Shown: piece by piece, positions 22,268 through 29,389 of the stretch
How positions within the stretch are numbered: the first letter of the stretch is position 1
Layout: each line of letters starts with the position of its first letter
DNA from: Delftia acidovorans NBRC 14950
Lineage (GTDB): Bacteria; Pseudomonadota; Gammaproteobacteria; Burkholderiales; Burkholderiaceae_C
Direction of reading: 5' to 3'
DNA: 32,000 bases
NCBI RefSeq assembly: GCF_001598795.1
Contig: NZ_BCZP01000032.1
Span: 15,567-47,566 of the forward strand
Program-made: the position numbers and the translations under genes
The notes under the pieces: generated by a model
Database searches by the model: none
Told to the model about the DNA's origin: nothing
The model's input: the letters and a program-made list of their open reading frames with translations, nothing else

Positions 22268-23557
22268 TCACTGCGCGGCCAGATCCCGGCCTCGCGTCTC
22301 CGGCAGGCACATGGCGAACATCACCACCATCACGTAGCCGGCCGTGGCGCAGATGCCGATGGCCGTGCCCAGCGACAGGCCCAGCCGGTCGCTGAACACG
22401 CCCACCAGCGCGGGGAAGGTGGCCCCGATGCCGCGGCCGAAGTTGTAGCAAAAGCCCTGGCCGGAGCCGCGCAGTTCGTTGGGGAACAGCTCGGCCAGGA
22501 AGGCTCCGGCGCCGCTGAAGATGCCCGACATGAAAAAACCCAGCGGAAAGCCCAGCACCAGCATCCAGGCATCGGTGATGGGCATCAGCGTATAGGCATA
22601 GGCCAGGCTGCCTGCGCCGATGGCGAACAGCGTGAAGGCCAGGCGCCGGCCCAGCCGGTCGGAAGCGTAGGCACCGCACAGGTAGCCTGCAAAGGCGCCA
22701 AAGATGAACATGAACTGGTAGCCGCCCGAGCCCAGCACCGTCAGGTGGCGCTCGTTCTTCAGGAAGGTGGGCAGCCACACGGCAATGGCGTAGTAGCCGC
22801 CCTGCATGCCCGTGAACATCAGGCTGGCCAGCACCGTGGTCTTGAGCATGCCGCCCTTGAAGATGTCCAGGAAGTGCCCGCTGCGCTCGCCCCGGCCCAC
22901 GGCGGCGCGGGTCTTCAGGTAGACCTCGGGGTCCTTGACGGAACGGCGGATGAACAGGATCAGCAAGGCCGGCAGCAAACCCAGCAGGAACATGGCCCGC
23001 CATGAAATCTCGGGCGGCAGAAACGAGAACAGCGCCATGGACACCAGCACGGCCGCCCCCCAGCCTATGGCCCAGCTGCTTTGCACCAGCCCCACCGCCT
23101 TGCCACGGAAAGCCGGCCGTATGGTCTCGGCGATCAGCACCGAGCCCACGGCCCATTCGCCGCCAAAGCCCAGCCCCTGCAGCGTGCGGGCCAGCAGCAA
23201 CTGGCCCGGCGTCTGCGCCAGGCCGCAGGCGAAGGTGAAAAGGGCGAACACGAGAATGGTCCACTGCAGCACGCGCACACGCCCGTAGCGGTCCGCCAGG
23301 ATGCCGGCCATCCAGCCGCCGATGGCCGAGGCCACCAGGGTCGAGGTGCCGATCAGGCCGACCTCGGTCTTGCTCATGCCCCACAGCGACAGAAGGATCG
23401 GCGTGACCAGGGGCAGCGTGTAGTAGTCGAAGGAATCGACCGCGTAGCCGCCGAACGAGGCCGTCAGTGCACGTTTTTCCCGGGGTTCGAGCTGGCCCAG
23501 CCAGCTGCCCTGCGACTGTTCGCCAGCCAGGGGCTTGGCATTGTCAAGGCTTGTCAT
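22268..23557 (-). CDS. MFS transporter (metabolite:H+ symporter-like)
   Basis: 429 aa with 12 predicted TM segments and MFS motif GILADRYGRVRVL / SDRLGRRL. AAGGAG lies 8 nt upstream of ATG 23557. It sits 126 nt downstream of the oxoprolinase gene on the same strand. Confidence 0.9.
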   Translation of the reverse strand: MTSLDNAKPLAGEQSQGSWLGQLEPREKRALTASFGGYAVDSFDYYTLPLVTPILLSLWGMSKTEVGLIGTSTLVASAIGGWMAGILADRYGRVRVLQWTILVFALFTFACGLAQTPGQLLLARTLQGLGFGGEWAVGSVLIAETIRPAFRGKAVGLVQSSWAIGWGAAVLVSMALFSFLPPEISWRAMFLLGLLPALLILFIRRSVKDPEVYLKTRAAVGRGERSGHFLDIFKGGMLKTTVLASLMFTGMQGGYYAIAVWLPTFLKNERHLTVLGSGGYQFMFIFGAFAGYLCGAYASDRLGRRLAFTLFAIGAGSLAYAYTLMPITDAWMLVLGFPLGFFMSGIFSGAGAFLAELFPNELRGSGQGFCYNFGRGIGATFPALVGVFSDRLGLSLGTAIGICATAGYVMVVMFAMCLPETRGRDLAAQ

Positions 23558-23683
23558 TTTTCAGTCTCCTTGCGCTTCGGTATGCAGAAGCGTCTTGCCT
23601 TCAATGGCATTGCATCGGTGATGAACCAGGCCTGGCCGGGCGGCCCTCATCCACCACCCGGACAGACCCCTGCAGGCGGCGTG

Positions 23684-26600
23684 TCAGGCCGCCGTTCCGT
23701 AGCCGCCGCCCCCCGGCGTGCAGACCTCGAACACATCGCCGGGCTGCATCTGCACGGCGCCGATATGCTCCAGCGCCTCGACCTGGCCATCGGCGCGCAG
23801 CACACGGTTGATGCCCGGCTGCCCCGGCTGGCCGCCCGCCATGCCGAAGGCCGGGTTCAGGCGTCCGTTGGACAGGATGCTGGCCGTCATGGCTTCCAGG
23901 AAACGCACGCGCCGCACACCGCCGCTGCCCCCCTGCCAGCGCCCGCTGCCGCCCGAGCCTTCGCGGATGGCATAGCTGTCCAGCATGACGGGGAAGCGGA
24001 ACTCCAGCACCTCCGGATCTGTCAGGCGCGAATTGGTCATGTGCGTCTGGACGACGCTGGTGCCGTTGAACCCGCGCTCCACCCGGCCCTCGGCGTCCAG
24101 CACCGCGCCCGCGCCGCTGCCGCCGGCAATGGTTTCGTAGTACTGGTGGCGCGCATTCCCGAAGGTGAAGTTGTTCATGGTGGGCTGGCTGCCCGCCATC
24201 ACGCCCAGCGCGCCGAACAGCGCATTGGTGATGCAGGTGGAGGTCTCCACATTGCCCGCCACCACCGAGGCCGGTGCATTGGGGTTGAGCATGCAGCCCT
24301 GGGGAATGATGACCTTCAAAGGCTTGAGGCAGCCCGCGTTGAGCGGGATGTCGTCGTCCACCAGCGTGCGGAACACGTACAGCACGGCCGCCATGCACAC
24401 GGCGCGCGGCGCATTGAAGTTGTTGGTCTGCTGGGCGCTGGTGCCCGAGAAGTCGATGACCGCGCTGCGGCCCGCCGTATCCACGGTGACGGCCACGCGG
24501 ATCTGCGCGCCGTTGTCCAGCGGCAGCGTGAACTGCCCGTTCCTGAGCCGCGTGATGACGCGGCGCACCGACTCCTCGGCGTTGTCCTGCACATGGCCCA
24601 TATAGGCCTGCACCACGGGCAGGCCGAACTGGGCCACCATCTTGCGCAGCTCCTGCACGCCTTTTTCATTGGCCGCGATCTGGGCCTTCAGGTCGGCCAG
24701 GTTCTGGTGCGGGTTGCGGCTCGGGTACTCGCCGCTTTGCAGCAGCTCGACCATCTCCTGGCCGCGCAGCACGCCGCGATCGACCAGCTTGAAGTTGTCG
24801 ATCTGCACGCCCTCTTCCTCGATGCGCGTGGAAAACGGCGGCATGGAACCGGGCGTGATGCCGCCCACGTCGGCATGGTGCCCCCGGCTGCCCACGTAGA
24901 AGGTGGGGGAGGCCTCGTCGGCCACGTACACGGGCGTGATGACCGTGATGTCGGGCAGGTGGGTGCCGCCCTGGTAGGGGTCGTTGAGCACATAGACATC
25001 GCCCTGGGCCATGCGCCCGGCGTTCTTGCGGATCACCGTCTGGATGCTCTCGCCCATGGAGCCCAGGTGCACGGGCATGTGCGGCGCATTGGCGATGAGG
25101 TGGCCCTCGGCGTCGAACAGCGCGCAGCTGAAGTCCAGCCGTTCCTTGATGTTCACCGAGTAGGCCGTGTTCTGCAGCTGCAGGCCCATCTGCTCGGCGA
25201 TGTTCATGAACAGGTTGTTGAAGACCTCCAGCAGCACCGGGTCCACCGAGGTGCCGGCCGCGTACTCGACCTTGCGCGCGACCACGCGGTCCAGCACCAG
25301 ATGGTCCAGCGCCGTGAGCCGCGCCAGCCAGCCGGGCTCGACCACCGTGGTGGCATTGCGCTCGGCGATGATGGCCGGGCCGGGGATGGCGTCGCCGGGC
25401 CGCAGGTCCTCGCGCACCACCAGGGCCGCGTCATGCCAGGCACCGTCGGAGTACATGCGCACGGTTTCGCGGCGCGGATGCTCGCGCGGCGGATGCTCCT
25501 GCAGCACCGGCTCGCTGGGCGCATCGCCCGCAATCACGGCTTCGACGGAAACGGCTTCCACCACCAGGCCCTTGCCCGCCATCAGGAAGGCGAACCGCTG
25601 GCGATAGGCCGACTCGAAGGCCGCCTGAATGTCGTCCAACCCGCCGAAGGGCACGGCCAGGGCGGAATCCGTGCCCTCATAGCGCACATGCACGTTGTAG
25701 CGCACCTGCACAGGACTGGCGCCGACCTGCTGGCGCTCAAGCTCGGCCTTGGCCGCGTCGCCCAGCGAATCCAGCGACTCCGCGATCAGCGGCAAGGCCG
25801 CCGCAGACAGCGCCACCTCCATCGCCTGTTCACGGATGACGGTCTGGTCCGCCAGGCCCATGCCGTAGGCGCTGAGCACGCCGGCCAGCGGATGCACGAA
25901 CACACGGGTCATGCCCAGCGCATCAGCCACCAGGCAGGCATGCTGGCCGCCCGCGCCGCCAAAGCACTGCAGCGTGTAGCGCGTCACGTCATAGCCGCGC
26001 GCCACGCTGATCTTCTTGATGGCGTTGGCCATCTGCTGCACGGCGATGCGGATGAAGCCTTCGGCCACTTCCTCGGGCCTGCGCCCCGTCTGCACCGCCA
26101 GTTCATCGAAGCGCGCCCGCACGGCCTCGCCATCGAGCCGCTCGTTGGCGGCCGGGCCGAACACGCTGGGGAAGTAGCGGGGCTGGACCTTGCCCACCAT
26201 CACGTTCGCATCGGTCACGGCCAGGGGCCCGCCACGGCGGTAGCTCACGGGGCCGGGGTTGGCGCCCGCGCTCTCCGGGCCCACGCGAAAGCGCGAGCCG
26301 TCATAGGCCAGTACCGAGCCGCCACCGGCGGCCACCGTGTGGATGCTCATCATCGGCGCGCGCATGCGCACACCGGCCACCTGGGTCTCGAACTCGCGCT
26401 CGAAGGCGCCAGCGTAGTGGCTGACATCGGTGGAGGTGCCGCCCATGTCGAAGCCGATGACCTTGTCGTGCCCGGCCAGCCCTGCCGTGCGGGCCATGCC
26501 CACGATGCCGCCGGCCGGCCCGCTCAGGATGGCATCCTTTCCCTGGAAGCTGCCCGCATCGGCCAACCCGCCGGAGGACTGCATGAAAAACAGCCGCACG

Positions 26601-28421: not shown

Positions 28422-28434
28422 GAAAACTGAACAG
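28422..28434. promoter_or_regulatory. second copy of GAAAACTGAACAG in the divergent lysR / DUF1445 intergenic region
   Basis: Exact 13/13 match to 27462-27474, in the same orientation, 25 nt upstream of the LysR ATG. The same intergenic region also holds inverted repeat TGAATGGA (28347-54) / TCCATTCA (28390-97). Confidence 0.4.
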
Positions 28435-28459
28435 CCACTGCAGCCCGCGCAGCCCCCCC

Positions 28460-29389
28460 ATGAACATCCGTTTTCTTGAAACCTTTGTGCTGCTGGCACG
28501 CATCGGCAGCGTGCGCCGCGTGGCCGAACTGGTGCATGCCAGCCCCGGCGCCGTCTCCATGCGCATACGCGGGCTGGAGTCGGACCTGGGCGTGACCCTG
28601 TTCCACTGGGACCGCAAGACGCTGCAGATCACCGATGCCGGCGCCCGCTTGCTGCGGCATGCGGAAGCCGTCATCGAAGCCACACGCACCCTGGAGCGTG
28701 CCGCCAGGTCCGACGACGCCATCGGCTGCCGCCTGCGGGTCGGTGTGCTGGAGACGGCGGTACACACCTTCCTGCCCGAATTCGTCAAGGCGATGGGTGC
28801 CAGCCTGCCGCACATCGAGCTGGACCTGACCGTCGATCTGAGCACCCACCTGTCGGAGCAGATGATGCGGCGCGACCTGGACCTGATCGTGCGCACCGGC
28901 AGCGGGGTGGACCCCCAGTTCGCCGTGGTCGAGAACCTGCTGGAAGTGCCCGTGCACTGGATTGCCAGGCGGGGCCTGGTGCCCAGGAAGGATGGACTGC
29001 ACAAGGCGCTGGGCAAGCAATTGCTGACCCAGATGCGCGGCACCGGCCCCTACGAGCAGGCCGTGGCCATGGCACAGCAGCTGGCCGTGCAAAGCGGCAT
29101 GGTCTCCAGCGATCTGCGCATCTCGGGATCGCCCTCGCTGGCGGCCCTGGTCTCGCTGGTGCGCGAGGGCCTGGGCGTCGCCATCATGCACGGCATGCTG
29201 GTGGCGCCGCAGCTCGAAAGCGGGGAGCTGGTGGAGCTGGAACTGCCCACGCCGCCCTCCTTTCGCATCACCACCTGGTACCCCAAGAGCCCGTCGCCCG
29301 GCGTCACCGACACCGCACAAGTGCTGCGCCGCGTCTGCAAGAGCTACTGCAAGCGGGTCAGCCCGCATCTGGCGCGGTACATCGGCTAG
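28460..29389 (+). CDS. LysR-family transcriptional regulator
   Basis: Track ORF trimmed to [48 protein letters not shown] (wHTH), followed by a LysR substrate-binding domain. It is divergent from the DUF1445 gene. Confidence 0.9.

What the first reader, a model, noticed from the sequence alone, without database searches (positions are those of the whole stretch)
22268..29389. DUF1445 (D-glutamate-cyclase family) hydro-lyase clustered with a eukaryote-type fused 5-oxoprolinase, an MFS transporter and a LysR regulator
Seen: lysR (28460-29389, +) is divergent from the DUF1445 gene (28332-27550, -). A terminator follows, then a 1210-aa HyuA/HyuB-fusion oxoprolinase (27316-23684) and an MFS transporter (23557-22268). 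Established: the DUF1445/UPF0317 family includes mammalian D-glutamate cyclase, which interconverts D-glutamate and 5-oxo-D-proline. In Bacillus subtilis the DUF1445 gene ycsI sits in the operon encoding the unrelated PxpABC-type 5-oxoprolinase (ycsF-kipI-kipA). Here the same family is paired with the other, non-homologous ATP-dependent oxoprolinase type. Association with two analogous enzymes strongly suggests a shared oxoproline/glutamate pathway, for example uptake and ring-opening of D- or L-pyroglutamate or a related lactam. In that scheme the DUF1445 enzyme would handle the D-isomer. The bacterial function of DUF1445 is, to my knowledge, not experimentally settled.
Basis: partly seen in the sequence, partly recalled or inferred. 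Interest (0 to 1): 0.6.

Follow-up and report, generated by a model that had tools for sequence, protein, structure and literature searches.

The report
Pyroglutamate uptake island with DUF1445 enzyme
A Delftia-type bacterium carries a regulated four-gene island that most likely imports pyroglutamate (5-oxoproline) and opens its ring with ATP. The island's uncharacterised DUF1445 enzyme is tied to both unrelated kinds of bacterial 5-oxoprolinase by neighbourhood, gene fusion and genome-wide co-occurrence, which gives a testable lead to its unknown function.

Summary
The genes are lysR (28460-29389, +), DUF1445/PF07286 (28332-27550, -), a hairpin plus T-run, a 1210-aa fused HyuA/HyuB enzyme (27316-23684, -) and an MFS transporter (23557-22268, -).

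- 57 genomes carry DUF1445, in 59 copies.
- 12 copies lie within 8 kb of a HyuB-type gene and 19 within 8 kb of PxpA. Random placement predicts 0.27 and 0.20.
- No DUF1445 was found in the 179 genomes that lack both oxoprolinase types.
- The two oxoprolinase types tend to exclude each other.
- About 48 of 59 copies sit beside a transporter.

The TRAP and ABC binding proteins next to DUF1445 are close homologues of proteins crystallised with L-pyroglutamate (2PFZ, 8WCH). Natural fusions exist: HyuA-HyuB-DUF1445, PxpA-DUF1445, PxpC-DUF1445 and DUF1445-DUF4392.

The island is therefore most likely a pyroglutamate uptake and ring-opening unit, here with an MFS carrier. What DUF1445 does remains untested. 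It could handle the D-isomer, act as a racemase, or be an accessory factor. This scan has noted the same association on other genomes many times. No paper I could find assigns a function to a bacterial DUF1445.

The parts
28460..29389 (+). LysR-family regulator, divergent from the DUF1445 gene; presumed activator of the island
   Evidence: HTH_1 (E 3e-14) and LysR_substrate (E 7e-23). Start read from the sequence. A LysR gene lies directly upstream of DUF1445 in most of the 58 related loci. The nearest one (L049/L050) is only 40% identical.
28333..28459 (.). 127-bp divergent control region between lysR and the DUF1445 gene
   Evidence: Sequence. No sigma-70 consensus match. The ATCGA-N-TCGAT box seen upstream of DUF1445 in L009, L012, L013 and L021 is not present here.
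27550..28332 (-). DUF1445 / UPF0317 'putative hydro-lyase' (260 aa), function untested
   Evidence: PF07286 E 1e-63 and NF003969 389.6 bits. 48% identical to 2PIF. All invariant family residues are present. AlphaFold model pLDDT 94.4.
27509..27530 (-). Intrinsic-terminator-like hairpin followed by a T-run, after the DUF1445 stop
   Evidence: 9 pairs, 7 of them G-C, tail TTTCTTTG. Whether transcription reads through it is not known.
23684..27316 (-). Fused HyuA/HyuB ATP-dependent lactamase of the eukaryote (OPLAH) type, 1210 aa; inferred 5-oxoprolinase
   Evidence: Four Pfam domains. 81-82% identical to the fused enzymes that follow DUF1445-TRAP in L012 and L013. Orthologues tend to be found in genomes without PxpA. 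Caprolactamase and acetophenone carboxylase models score far below their cut-offs.
22268..23557 (-). MFS secondary transporter (429 aa), inferred pyroglutamate importer
   Evidence: MFS_1 E 3e-44. Orthologues at 54-60% identity lie within about 1.1 kb of DUF1445 in seven other loci from three families: L008, L021, L034, L039, L048, L049 and L050.

Best explanation
This is a LysR-controlled island for using external pyroglutamate (5-oxoproline).
- The MFS carrier brings pyroglutamate in.
- The 1210-aa fused HyuA/HyuB enzyme is a eukaryote-type 5-oxoprolinase. It spends ATP to open 5-oxo-L-proline to L-glutamate.
- DUF1445 is a small, probably cofactor-free enzyme that acts on the same ring/open-chain pair. 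It most likely serves the D-enantiomer by interconverting 5-oxo-D-proline and D-glutamate (the D-glutamate cyclase reaction of its mammalian relative). That would let racemic pyroglutamate, or D-glutamate, feed into ordinary glutamate metabolism.

Shown here: the gene content, its conservation, and the statistical, fusion and phyletic links between DUF1445, transporters and both oxoprolinase types.

Inferred: the substrate of the MFS carrier, the substrate of the fused enzyme, and everything about the chemistry and stereochemistry of DUF1445.

My odds are about 0.75 that the island handles pyroglutamate and about 0.35-0.4 that DUF1445 is the D-isomer enzyme.
For: (1) Neighbourhood. In 400 Pseudomonadota genomes, 57 carry DUF1445 (59 full copies). 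Twelve copies lie within 8 kb of Hydantoinase_B; 11 of these sit in about 1200-aa fused frames. Nineteen lie within 8 kb of PxpA. Random placement predicts 0.27 and 0.20. The HyuAB-linked copies come from 4 families and 8 genera. On the DUF1445 tree they need at least 6 separate label changes and are interleaved with Pxp-linked copies.

(2) Phyletic pattern. DUF1445 is found in 8 of 18 genomes with both oxoprolinase types, 9 of 74 with the fused type only, 40 of 129 with PxpA only, and 0 of 179 with neither. The two types are negatively associated, odds ratio 0.34.

(3) Transport. About 48 of 59 copies have a transporter in the cluster, usually the next gene: TRAP, ABC, MFS or NRAMP-like. The DctP next to DUF1445 in L012 matches B. 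pertussis DctP7 (2PFZ) at E 2e-95. The ABC binding protein in L022 matches SAR11_0655 (8WCH) at E 1.6e-108. Both reference proteins were solved with pyroglutamate bound (PMC13274462, PMC11485210).

(4) Fusions. HyuA-HyuB-DUF1445 proteins of 1473-1553 aa occur in several phyla. P0125 groups with the window's DUF1445 on the tree (SH-aLRT support 80). PxpA-DUF1445, PxpC-DUF1445, DUF1445-DUF4392 and MurD-like-DUF1445-DUF4392 fusions also exist.

(5) D-glutamate link in other lineages. DUF4392 and a class IV (D-amino-acid type) aminotransferase follow DUF1445-PxpABC in L030, L032 and L033.

(6) The island is conserved in Delftia genomes. The genome keeps a separate pxpABC elsewhere, which fits a dedicated uptake island.
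Against: No experiment supports any step.
- The crystallised binding proteins hold the L-isomer, which the oxoprolinase alone could use. In C. glutamicum, pxpT and pxpABC together restored growth on 5-oxo-L-proline to a pxpTABC deletion mutant; DUF1445 was not examined there.
- Most genomes with either oxoprolinase have no DUF1445: 75 of 92 with the fused type and 99 of 147 with PxpA. DUF1445 is therefore dispensable for ring opening.
- The D-glutamate cyclase activity of the mammalian protein has not been mapped to its DUF1445 domain in the paper read, and this genome lacks DUF4392.
- The cyclase equilibrium favours the ring (Keq of about 0.035 for the L pair). Ring opening by DUF1445 would need downstream pull.
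- HyuAB and Pxp paralogues in P. putida act on other lactams.
- A terminator-like hairpin separates DUF1445 from the fused gene, so co-transcription is not shown.
- The phyletic statistics are not corrected for shared ancestry.
Confidence: 0.55

Rival explanations
1. DUF1445 is a 5-oxoproline racemase. It turns 5-oxo-D-proline into 5-oxo-L-proline, the substrate of the ATP-dependent oxoprolinase. Where DUF4392 is also present, D-glutamate is first cyclised. The net result is an ATP-driven, one-way D-to-L glutamate route.
For: The product of DUF1445 would be the substrate of both oxoprolinases. That would explain the fusions to HyuAB, PxpA and PxpC and the complete dependence on an oxoprolinase in the genome (57 of 57; 0 of 179 without).

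Two near-invariant cysteines (C115 in GCSxSFE, C223 in FWACGVT) each sit at a strand-to-helix junction. Both are replaced by serine together in the divergent L061 copy, which also has a different gene context. It makes sense of DUF1445-only islands such as this one.
Against: The fold is not that of any known two-cysteine racemase; the only match beyond its own family is an NrpR-like domain. Recombinant mammalian DGLUCY, which contains this domain, is reported to yield 5-oxo-D-proline, not the L form. No 5-oxoproline racemase is known to me.
Confidence: 0.2
2. DUF1445 is not a stereo-specific enzyme. It is an accessory to 5-oxoproline metabolism: a ligand-binding or regulatory subunit, or an enzyme that removes a side product of the ATP-dependent ring opening. 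The island simply uses L-pyroglutamate.
For: The only structural relative is the NrpR-like nitrogen-repressor domain (3NEK: Z 10.0, rmsd 4.1, 167 aligned residues, 11% identity; next hit Z 4.2). From my own knowledge, NrpR senses 2-oxoglutarate, another C5 dicarboxylate. The adjacent binding proteins resemble L-pyroglutamate binders. Fusion to enzymes is also what a regulatory or accessory domain would show.
Against: About 24 invariant residues, including polar ones (Q32, N34, D77, D81, S116, E120, R163, H184), are conserved from bacteria to vertebrate DGLUCY. That looks like an active site. Most oxoprolinase genomes do without DUF1445. A link to D-glutamate enzymes exists in other lineages.
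Confidence: 0.15
3. The island acts on a different lactam, hydantoin or cyclic amide. The fused enzyme is not a 5-oxoprolinase.
For: The best solved relative is deposited as 'N-methylhydantoinase' (7HK5, E 8e-130), followed by caprolactamase. P. putida OplBA and a Pxp paralogue hydrolyse valerolactam and butyrolactam rather than 5-oxoproline. The MFS substrate is unknown. An amidase plus DUF2848 replaces the oxoprolinase downstream of DUF1445-TRAP in several loci.
Against: Among the DUF1445-carrying genomes examined, all 9 without PxpA carry this fused enzyme, and across 400 genomes the two types tend to exclude each other. The 81%-identical orthologue in L012 follows a DctP7-like pyroglutamate binding protein. 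The caprolactamase equivalog models score 307 and 180 bits against cut-offs of 1000.
Confidence: 0.08
4. The adjacency is a chance juxtaposition with no functional meaning.
For: A terminator-like hairpin and a 233-bp gap separate DUF1445 from the fused gene.
Against: Twelve and 19 adjacencies were observed where 0.27 and 0.20 are expected. The adjacency recurs in 4 and 10 families respectively. Covalent fusions exist.
Confidence: 0.02

Closest known systems
Bordetella pertussis DctP6/DctP7 TRAP locus beside a eukaryote-type 5-oxoprolinase (Rucktooa et al. 2007, as described in PMC13274462)
   Same: It also combines an uptake system for pyroglutamate with a fused HyuA/HyuB oxoprolinase in a betaproteobacterium. 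Related loci here (L012, L013) have LysR-DUF1445-DctP-DctQ-DctM-DctP-fused enzyme. Their DctP matches 2PFZ at E 2e-95, and their fused enzyme is 81-82% identical to the window's.
   Different: The window uses an MFS carrier instead of TRAP, and its gene order is DUF1445, fused enzyme, MFS. The papers I read do not mention DUF1445. I did not inspect the B. pertussis locus itself.
PxpABC 5-oxoprolinase loci: B. subtilis ycsF-ycsG-ycsI-kipI-kipA and C. glutamicum pxpR-pxpTABC (PMC13274462, PMC10448178)
   Same: The logic is the same: regulator, transporter and ATP-dependent ring opening of 5-oxo-L-proline. In B. subtilis a DUF1445 gene (ycsI) lies in the operon. Nineteen of 59 proteobacterial DUF1445 copies lie next to PxpA.
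   Different: The ring-opening enzyme here is the unrelated fused HyuA/HyuB type. The regulator is LysR rather than GntR, and the transporter is MFS rather than NRAMP/APC-like. pxpABC is present in this genome but on another contig.
Mammalian mitochondrial D-glutamate cyclase (DGLUCY / C14orf159; Ariyoshi et al. 2017, PMC5339696)
   Same: It contains a DUF1445 domain that is 35-40% identical to the window protein and has the same invariant residues. It acts on the glutamate/5-oxoproline pair.
   Different: DGLUCY also carries DUF4392, which is absent from this protein and this genome. Which domain is catalytic is not stated in that paper. The bacterial activity is untested.
Eukaryotic 5-oxoprolinase (OPLAH / yeast OXP1, EC 3.5.2.9)
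   Same: Single-chain HyuA-HyuB architecture of about 1200-1290 aa. The literature counts homologues in 115 of 984 prokaryotic genomes (Niehaus 2017, as cited).
   Different: I did not measure identity to a characterised eukaryotic enzyme. The assignment rests on architecture, context and the complementary distribution with PxpA.
Other ATP-dependent lactamases of the HyuA/HyuB family: P. jessenii caprolactamase CapAB and P. putida OplBA
   Same: Same superfamily and the same ATP-dependent lactam hydrolysis.
   Different: Those enzymes have two subunits and act on C5/C6 lactams. The window protein scores 307 and 180 bits against cut-offs of 1000 for the caprolactamase models.

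Membership tests
UPF0317 / DUF1445 (Pfam PF07286, NCBIfam NF003969 'putative hydro-lyase') | Score above the curated cut-offs of the family models | tested here: met
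   PF07286: 213.9 bits against a cut-off of 25. NF003969: 389.6 bits against 324.
UPF0317 / DUF1445 (Pfam PF07286, NCBIfam NF003969 'putative hydro-lyase') | Family-invariant residues (Q32, N34, D77, D81, G114, S116, E120, R163, H184, W221, A222) and near-invariant C115 and C223 | tested here: met
   All are present in the window protein in a 40-sequence alignment that reaches vertebrate DGLUCY.
UPF0317 / DUF1445 (Pfam PF07286, NCBIfam NF003969 'putative hydro-lyase') | Fold of the solved members 2PIF and 3DB9 | tested here: met
   The AlphaFold model (pLDDT 94.4) matches 2PIF at TM 0.88-0.90 and Z 33, and 3DB9 at TM 0.84-0.93.
D-glutamate cyclase (DGLUCY, EC 4.2.1.48) | Two-domain make-up, DUF1445 plus DUF4392 (PF14336) | tested here: not met
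   The window protein is DUF1445 only. No PF14336 match was found in the 100%-complete genome, but the same search also rang in none of the 14 control genomes, so its sensitivity is unproven. PF14336 was detected by Pfam in L032.
D-glutamate cyclase (DGLUCY, EC 4.2.1.48) | Conversion of D-glutamate to 5-oxo-D-proline | not testable with these tools
   This needs an enzyme assay with chiral analysis.
Eukaryote-type 5-oxoprolinase (OPLAH, EC 3.5.2.9) | Single chain with Hydant_A_N, Hydantoinase_A, Hydant_A_C and Hydantoinase_B, about 1200-1290 aa | tested here: met
   All four domains are present in order in 1210 aa.
Eukaryote-type 5-oxoprolinase (OPLAH, EC 3.5.2.9) | Functional equivalence to PxpABC, seen as a complementary distribution | tested here: met
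   Of 400 genomes, 18 have both, 74 the fused type only, 129 PxpA only and 179 neither. Odds ratio 0.34, Fisher p 7e-5, not corrected for phylogeny. All 9 DUF1445 genomes without PxpA have the fused enzyme.
Eukaryote-type 5-oxoprolinase (OPLAH, EC 3.5.2.9) | ATP-dependent hydrolysis of 5-oxo-L-proline to L-glutamate | not testable with these tools
   This needs an enzyme assay. Context support: the 81%-identical orthologue follows a DctP7-like pyroglutamate binding protein.
Caprolactamase CapAB / acetophenone carboxylase (NCBIfam equivalogs) | Score above the equivalog cut-off | tested here: not met
   307 and 180 bits against cut-offs of 1000; 147, 119 and 61 bits against 1250-1500.
PxpABC prokaryotic 5-oxoprolinase | LamB_YcsF, CT_C_D and CT_A_B genes in the island | tested here: not met
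   None is in the window's island. A pxpA-pxpB-pxpC set lies on another contig, C6.
LysR-type transcriptional regulator | N-terminal HTH_1 plus LysR substrate-binding domain, divergent from its target gene | tested here: met
   The effector is not testable here.
Pyroglutamate transporter (functional class; no single family) | Demonstrated or structure-backed pyroglutamate binding | tested here: inconclusive
   The window's carrier is an MFS protein with no characterised close relative. Its orthologues are adjacent to DUF1445 in 7 other loci. Only the TRAP and ABC systems in the equivalent position match pyroglutamate-bound structures.

The most novel reading that the evidence does not exclude
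DUF1445 is a previously unrecognised cofactor-free enzyme that inverts or opens the D-form of 5-oxoproline. With either ATP-dependent oxoprolinase it would form a one-way route from D-glutamate or D-pyroglutamate to L-glutamate. That would be a new way for bacteria, and possibly mitochondria, to dispose of or salvage D-glutamate without a classical racemase.
Probability: 0.2. Interest if true: 0.75.

Novelty: new variant of a known kind. Interest (0 to 1): 0.5.

Why it matters
DUF1445/UPF0317 is widespread; it was found in 14% of the sampled Pseudomonadota genomes. Two crystal structures have existed since 2007-2008, and a human homologue is implicated in D-glutamate metabolism. I found no paper that gives a bacterial DUF1445 a tested function.

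The comparative evidence narrows its substrate to the 5-oxoproline/glutamate pair and points to simple experiments. Pyroglutamate forms spontaneously from glutamate and glutamine, and recent work shows that bacteria have dedicated high-affinity importers for it. A second, D-specific or racemising step would change how this pool and peptidoglycan-derived D-glutamate are thought to be recycled.

For this particular window the gain is modest. It is one more instance of the pattern, with an MFS carrier in place of the TRAP or ABC importers.

Tried and rejected
- Complex prediction of DUF1445 with the HyuB half of the fused enzyme gave no verdict (score 0.00). It counts neither for nor against binding.
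- Public sequencing runs: 20 runs hold the stretch, but all are kept as assembled contigs and most are probably DNA. The one library on record as RNA gave flat contig depth across genes and spacers. Nothing can be said about expression, operon structure or read-through of the hairpin.
- Fold searches found no racemase, amidohydrolase or cyclotransferase fold for DUF1445; only an NrpR-like domain appeared. This does not exclude such chemistry.
- The search for a shared LysR box failed. An ATCGA-N-TCGAT motif recurs upstream of DUF1445 in L009, L012, L013 and L021 but not in the window or in L049/L050.
- No sigma-70 consensus promoter was found in 22000-29600.
- The Niehaus et al. 2017 paper on PxpABC could not be read, so I cite it only through other papers.
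- Literature searches for DUF1445, UPF0317, ycsI, pxpI and D-pyroglutamate returned nothing on bacterial function.
- The sequence I cut for the second DUF1445 copy in L060 was poor and gave a very long branch. Its place in the tree should be ignored.
- The careful tree search did not finish; the quick tree was used.
- G276 has a fused enzyme by Pfam that the protein search missed. I added it by hand.

Full report
**Observation.**
- The DUF1445 gene (27550-28332, minus strand, 260 aa) matches PF07286 at E 1e-63. It also matches the NCBIfam equivalog NF003969 'putative hydro-lyase' at 389.6 bits, against a cut-off of 324.
- The large ORF (23684-27406) carries Hydant_A_N, Hydantoinase_A, Hydant_A_C and Hydantoinase_B in one chain.
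- The MFS gene (22268-23557) and the LysR gene (28460-29389) are confirmed.
- A 9-bp G+C-rich hairpin with a T-run follows the DUF1445 stop at 27530-27509.
- Third-position G+C of 0.86-0.89 picks these frames out from the shadow ORFs of this 68% G+C DNA.

**Organism and local conservation.** The DUF1445 protein is 98% identical to a protein named from Delftia. The window aligns at about 94% DNA identity over 11 kb with a complete Delftia chromosome, which has the same order: lysR / DUF1445 / fused enzyme / MFS / DUF1993 / HAD. In the genus as delimited by the genome collection, only 1 of 23 other species has DUF1445, so the island is accessory. The window's genome has one DUF1445 and two Hydantoinase_B genes. 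It has no detected DUF4392 (with the sensitivity caveat given below). It also has a complete pxpA-pxpB-pxpC set on another contig.

In 400 evenly drawn Pseudomonadota genomes, 57 have DUF1445, in 59 full copies. I then searched those genomes for Hydantoinase_B and for PxpA (LamB_YcsF).
- Twelve copies lie within 8 kb of a Hydantoinase_B gene. Eleven of these sit in fused frames of about 1200 aa and one is a split form.
- Nineteen copies lie within 8 kb of PxpA.
- Twenty-eight copies lie near neither.
- Random placement would give 0.27 and 0.20 adjacencies.
- The HyuAB-linked copies come from four families and eight genera.
- On a quick maximum-likelihood tree of DUF1445, the HyuAB label needs seven changes, and well-supported branches force at least six. 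HyuAB-linked and Pxp-linked copies are interleaved. The partner has therefore been swapped repeatedly.
- The window's copy groups with two MFS-plus-fused-enzyme loci of another family (L049, L050) and with a natural HyuA-HyuB-DUF1445 fusion, P0125 (SH-aLRT support 80-94).

**Gene maps.** I fetched 20 kb around all 58 other copies, called ORFs, clustered them and named the clusters with Pfam. The constant core is not the oxoprolinase. It is LysR, then DUF1445, then a transporter on the same strand.
- About 24 loci have TRAP dctPQM.
- Eleven have an ABC system with a Peripla_BP_6 binding protein.
- Eight have the window's kind of MFS carrier.
- Five have an NRAMP-like carrier of the PxpT/YcsG kind.

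Further downstream comes the fused enzyme, PxpABC, or in several loci an amidase plus DUF2848. The window's MFS protein has orthologues at 54-60% identity within about 1.1 kb of DUF1445 in seven other loci from three families. It is thus a DUF1445-linked carrier and not a passer-by.

**What the transporters carry.**
- The DctP directly after DUF1445 in L012 matches B. pertussis DctP7 (2PFZ) at E 2e-95 and DctP6 (2PFY) at E 6e-71.
- The ABC binding protein after DUF1445 in L022 matches SAR11_0655 (8WCH) at E 1.6e-108.
- DctP6 and DctP7 were solved with 5-oxoproline bound (Kd 0.3 uM for DctP7), and their genes lie near a eukaryote-type 5-oxoprolinase gene (PMC13274462).
- SAR11_0655 binds L-pyroglutamate with Kd below 5 nM and sits in a locus with pxpABC (PMC11485210).

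Two unrelated binding-protein families in the same slot therefore point to the same ligand. For the window's MFS carrier the substrate is inferred by analogy only.

**The fused enzyme.** Its orthologues were defined as a HyuB half matching at E 1e-120 or better; all sit in frames of about 1200 aa. They occur in 92 of the 400 genomes, and PxpA occurs in 147. Eighteen genomes have both, 74 only the fused type, 129 only PxpA and 179 neither. The odds ratio is 0.34 (Fisher p 7e-5, not corrected for phylogeny).
- Among the DUF1445 genomes, all nine without PxpA have the fused enzyme. This is the pattern expected if the two are alternative 5-oxoprolinases. It agrees with the literature count of eukaryote-type homologues in 115 of 984 prokaryotic genomes.
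- The window's enzyme is 81-82% identical to those that follow DUF1445-TRAP in L012 and L013.
- Caution is due. The best solved relative is deposited as N-methylhydantoinase (7HK5, E 8e-130), and P. putida paralogues of both enzyme families act on other lactams.
- The caprolactamase and acetophenone carboxylase equivalog models score far below their cut-offs.

**DUF1445 and the oxoprolinases at the genome and protein level.** DUF1445 was found in 8 of 18, 9 of 74 and 40 of 129 genomes with both, fused-only and Pxp-only enzymes. It was found in none of the 179 genomes with neither (Fisher p 5e-17, uncorrected). Conversely, most genomes with an oxoprolinase lack DUF1445, so it is an optional addition. 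A search for longer relatives found these natural fusions:
- HyuA-HyuB-DUF1445, 1473-1553 aa, eleven clusters, including ones labelled KSB1, Zhuqueibacterota and Dadabacteria
- PxpA-DUF1445
- PxpC-DUF1445
- DUF1445-DctP
- many bacterial DUF1445-DUF4392 proteins
- MurD-like-DUF1445-DUF4392 proteins
- vertebrate D-glutamate cyclase

In four gammaproteobacterial genera, DUF4392 follows the DUF1445 gene or the DUF1445-Pxp genes. A class IV aminotransferase comes after it in three of the four. Fusion with both unrelated oxoprolinases argues that DUF1445 works on their substrate or product. The DUF4392, transaminase and MurD-like links point to D-glutamate.

**The protein itself.** A 40-sequence alignment from bacteria to vertebrates has 24 invariant positions, among them Q32, N34, D77, D81, S116, E120, R163 and H184. 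C115 (GCSxSFE) and C223 (FWACGVT) are near-invariant, and the window protein has them all.
- A divergent copy (L061) lies after fliPQR-type genes and before a CitMHS transporter. It has serine at both cysteine positions.
- The AlphaFold model is confident (pLDDT 94.4) and matches the two structural-genomics entries 2PIF and 3DB9.
- Beyond these, the only clear structural relative is the NrpR-like domain of MJ0159 (3NEK: Z 10.0, rmsd 4.1, 167 residues, 11% identity). The next hit has Z 4.2.
- The fold gives no catalytic precedent.

**Mechanism.** I commit to the following.
- LysR switches on the island in response to pyroglutamate or a close relative.
- The MFS carrier imports it.
- The fused enzyme opens 5-oxo-L-proline to L-glutamate with ATP.
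- DUF1445 deals with the D-enantiomer by interconverting 5-oxo-D-proline and D-glutamate.

Only the gene-level associations are shown. Every substrate is inferred. The main rival is that DUF1445 racemises 5-oxoproline and so feeds the oxoprolinase. This explains the fusions and the strict dependence on an oxoprolinase better, and it fits the paired cysteines. It conflicts, however, with the reported 5-oxo-D-proline product of the mammalian enzyme. A third reading is an accessory or ligand-binding role. A different lactam substrate, and chance, are minor rivals.

**Comparison with what is known.**
- Pyroglutamate uptake-plus-ring-opening loci are known: C. glutamicum pxpR-pxpTABC, the B. subtilis ycs/kip operon, the B. 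pertussis TRAP locus and the SAR11 ABC locus.
- Bacterial eukaryote-type oxoprolinases are known.
- The papers I could read do not discuss DUF1445 in these loci, and none assigns a function to a bacterial member.
- The mammalian D-glutamate cyclase paper leaves open which of its two domains is catalytic. No DUF4392 match was found in this genome, so the window protein fails that architectural criterion. The same family search rang in none of the control genomes, which limits what the negative result shows.
- This scan has already recorded the DUF1445-oxoprolinase association on many other genomes (71 notes). One of them, on a Hydrogenophaga locus, gave me the lead to DctP6/DctP7, which I then tested myself.
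- The window is therefore a further instance, with an MFS carrier, of a recurring and still unexplained pattern.

**Dead ends.** Complex prediction gave no verdict. The public runs are contigs and say nothing about expression. No conserved LysR box links this locus to the others.

Noticed in passing
window 30452-31225 (+): The TctC-family (Bug) receptor gene has an in-frame gap of about 198 bp relative to the Delftia chromosome in L063, with a 7-bp overlap at the junction. Pfam covers only positions 2-135 of the 274-position profile. It may be an internally deleted, non-functional receptor.
   Followed up: partly
window 29386-30342 (-) and 30425-32000 (+): A second LysR gene abuts the island's lysR tail to tail. 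It is divergent from a TctC / PdxA-like operon which, in Delftia relatives, continues with an MR_MLE enolase-superfamily gene and a DHDPS-family gene. This is probably a separate acid-sugar or hydroxy-acid catabolic unit.
   Followed up: no
window 11872-20887 (-): Two sets of FecR-type anti-sigma and STN-Plug TonB-dependent receptor genes lie in tandem. An ECF sigma gene precedes the set nearer the island (20135-20887). These are iron or other siderophore-type uptake signalling units.
   Followed up: no
L061:9344-10168 and L062:9377-10165: A divergent DUF1445 paralogue (40-43% identical) lies after fliP/fliQ/fliR-type export genes. In L061 a CitMHS transporter gene follows it, and both conserved cysteines are replaced by serine. 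This may be a neofunctionalised branch.
   Followed up: partly
L036, L043, L044, L056 (also L011, L053, L057): A third kind of partner: DUF1445-TRAP is followed by DUF2848 and/or an amidase-signature enzyme (PF01425) instead of, or as well as, an oxoprolinase.
   Followed up: no
L007, L008, L010, L025: A Pseudomonas-type arrangement: an NRAMP-like carrier (an MFS carrier in L008), with a GntR gene upstream in L007 and L010, then PxpA, DUF1445 and a fused PxpB-PxpC. A biotin carboxylase with a biotinyl domain follows, which suggests a carboxylating variant of the Pxp machinery next to DUF1445.
   Followed up: no
P0137, P0143, P0144, P0170, P0173, P0175, P0180: DUF1445 is fused to the DNA-binding domain family of O6-methylguanine-DNA methyltransferase (PF01035) in at least seven clusters (two further, partial matches are P0181 and P0182), one from the protist Cafeteria. 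This is unexplained.
   Followed up: no
L060 (G432 contig 1): A second, divergent DUF1445 copy (43% identical) sits among TctC/TctA transporter genes, a class IV aminotransferase, an HpcH-type aldolase and a HyuA gene. A Hydantoinase_B match (unfused, 680-aa frame) lies about 4.6 kb from it. It may act on a different substrate.
   Followed up: partly
window 27532-27534: Contigs from other strains carry 8- or 12-bp insertions between the DUF1445 stop and the terminator hairpin, so this is a variable spot.
   Followed up: no
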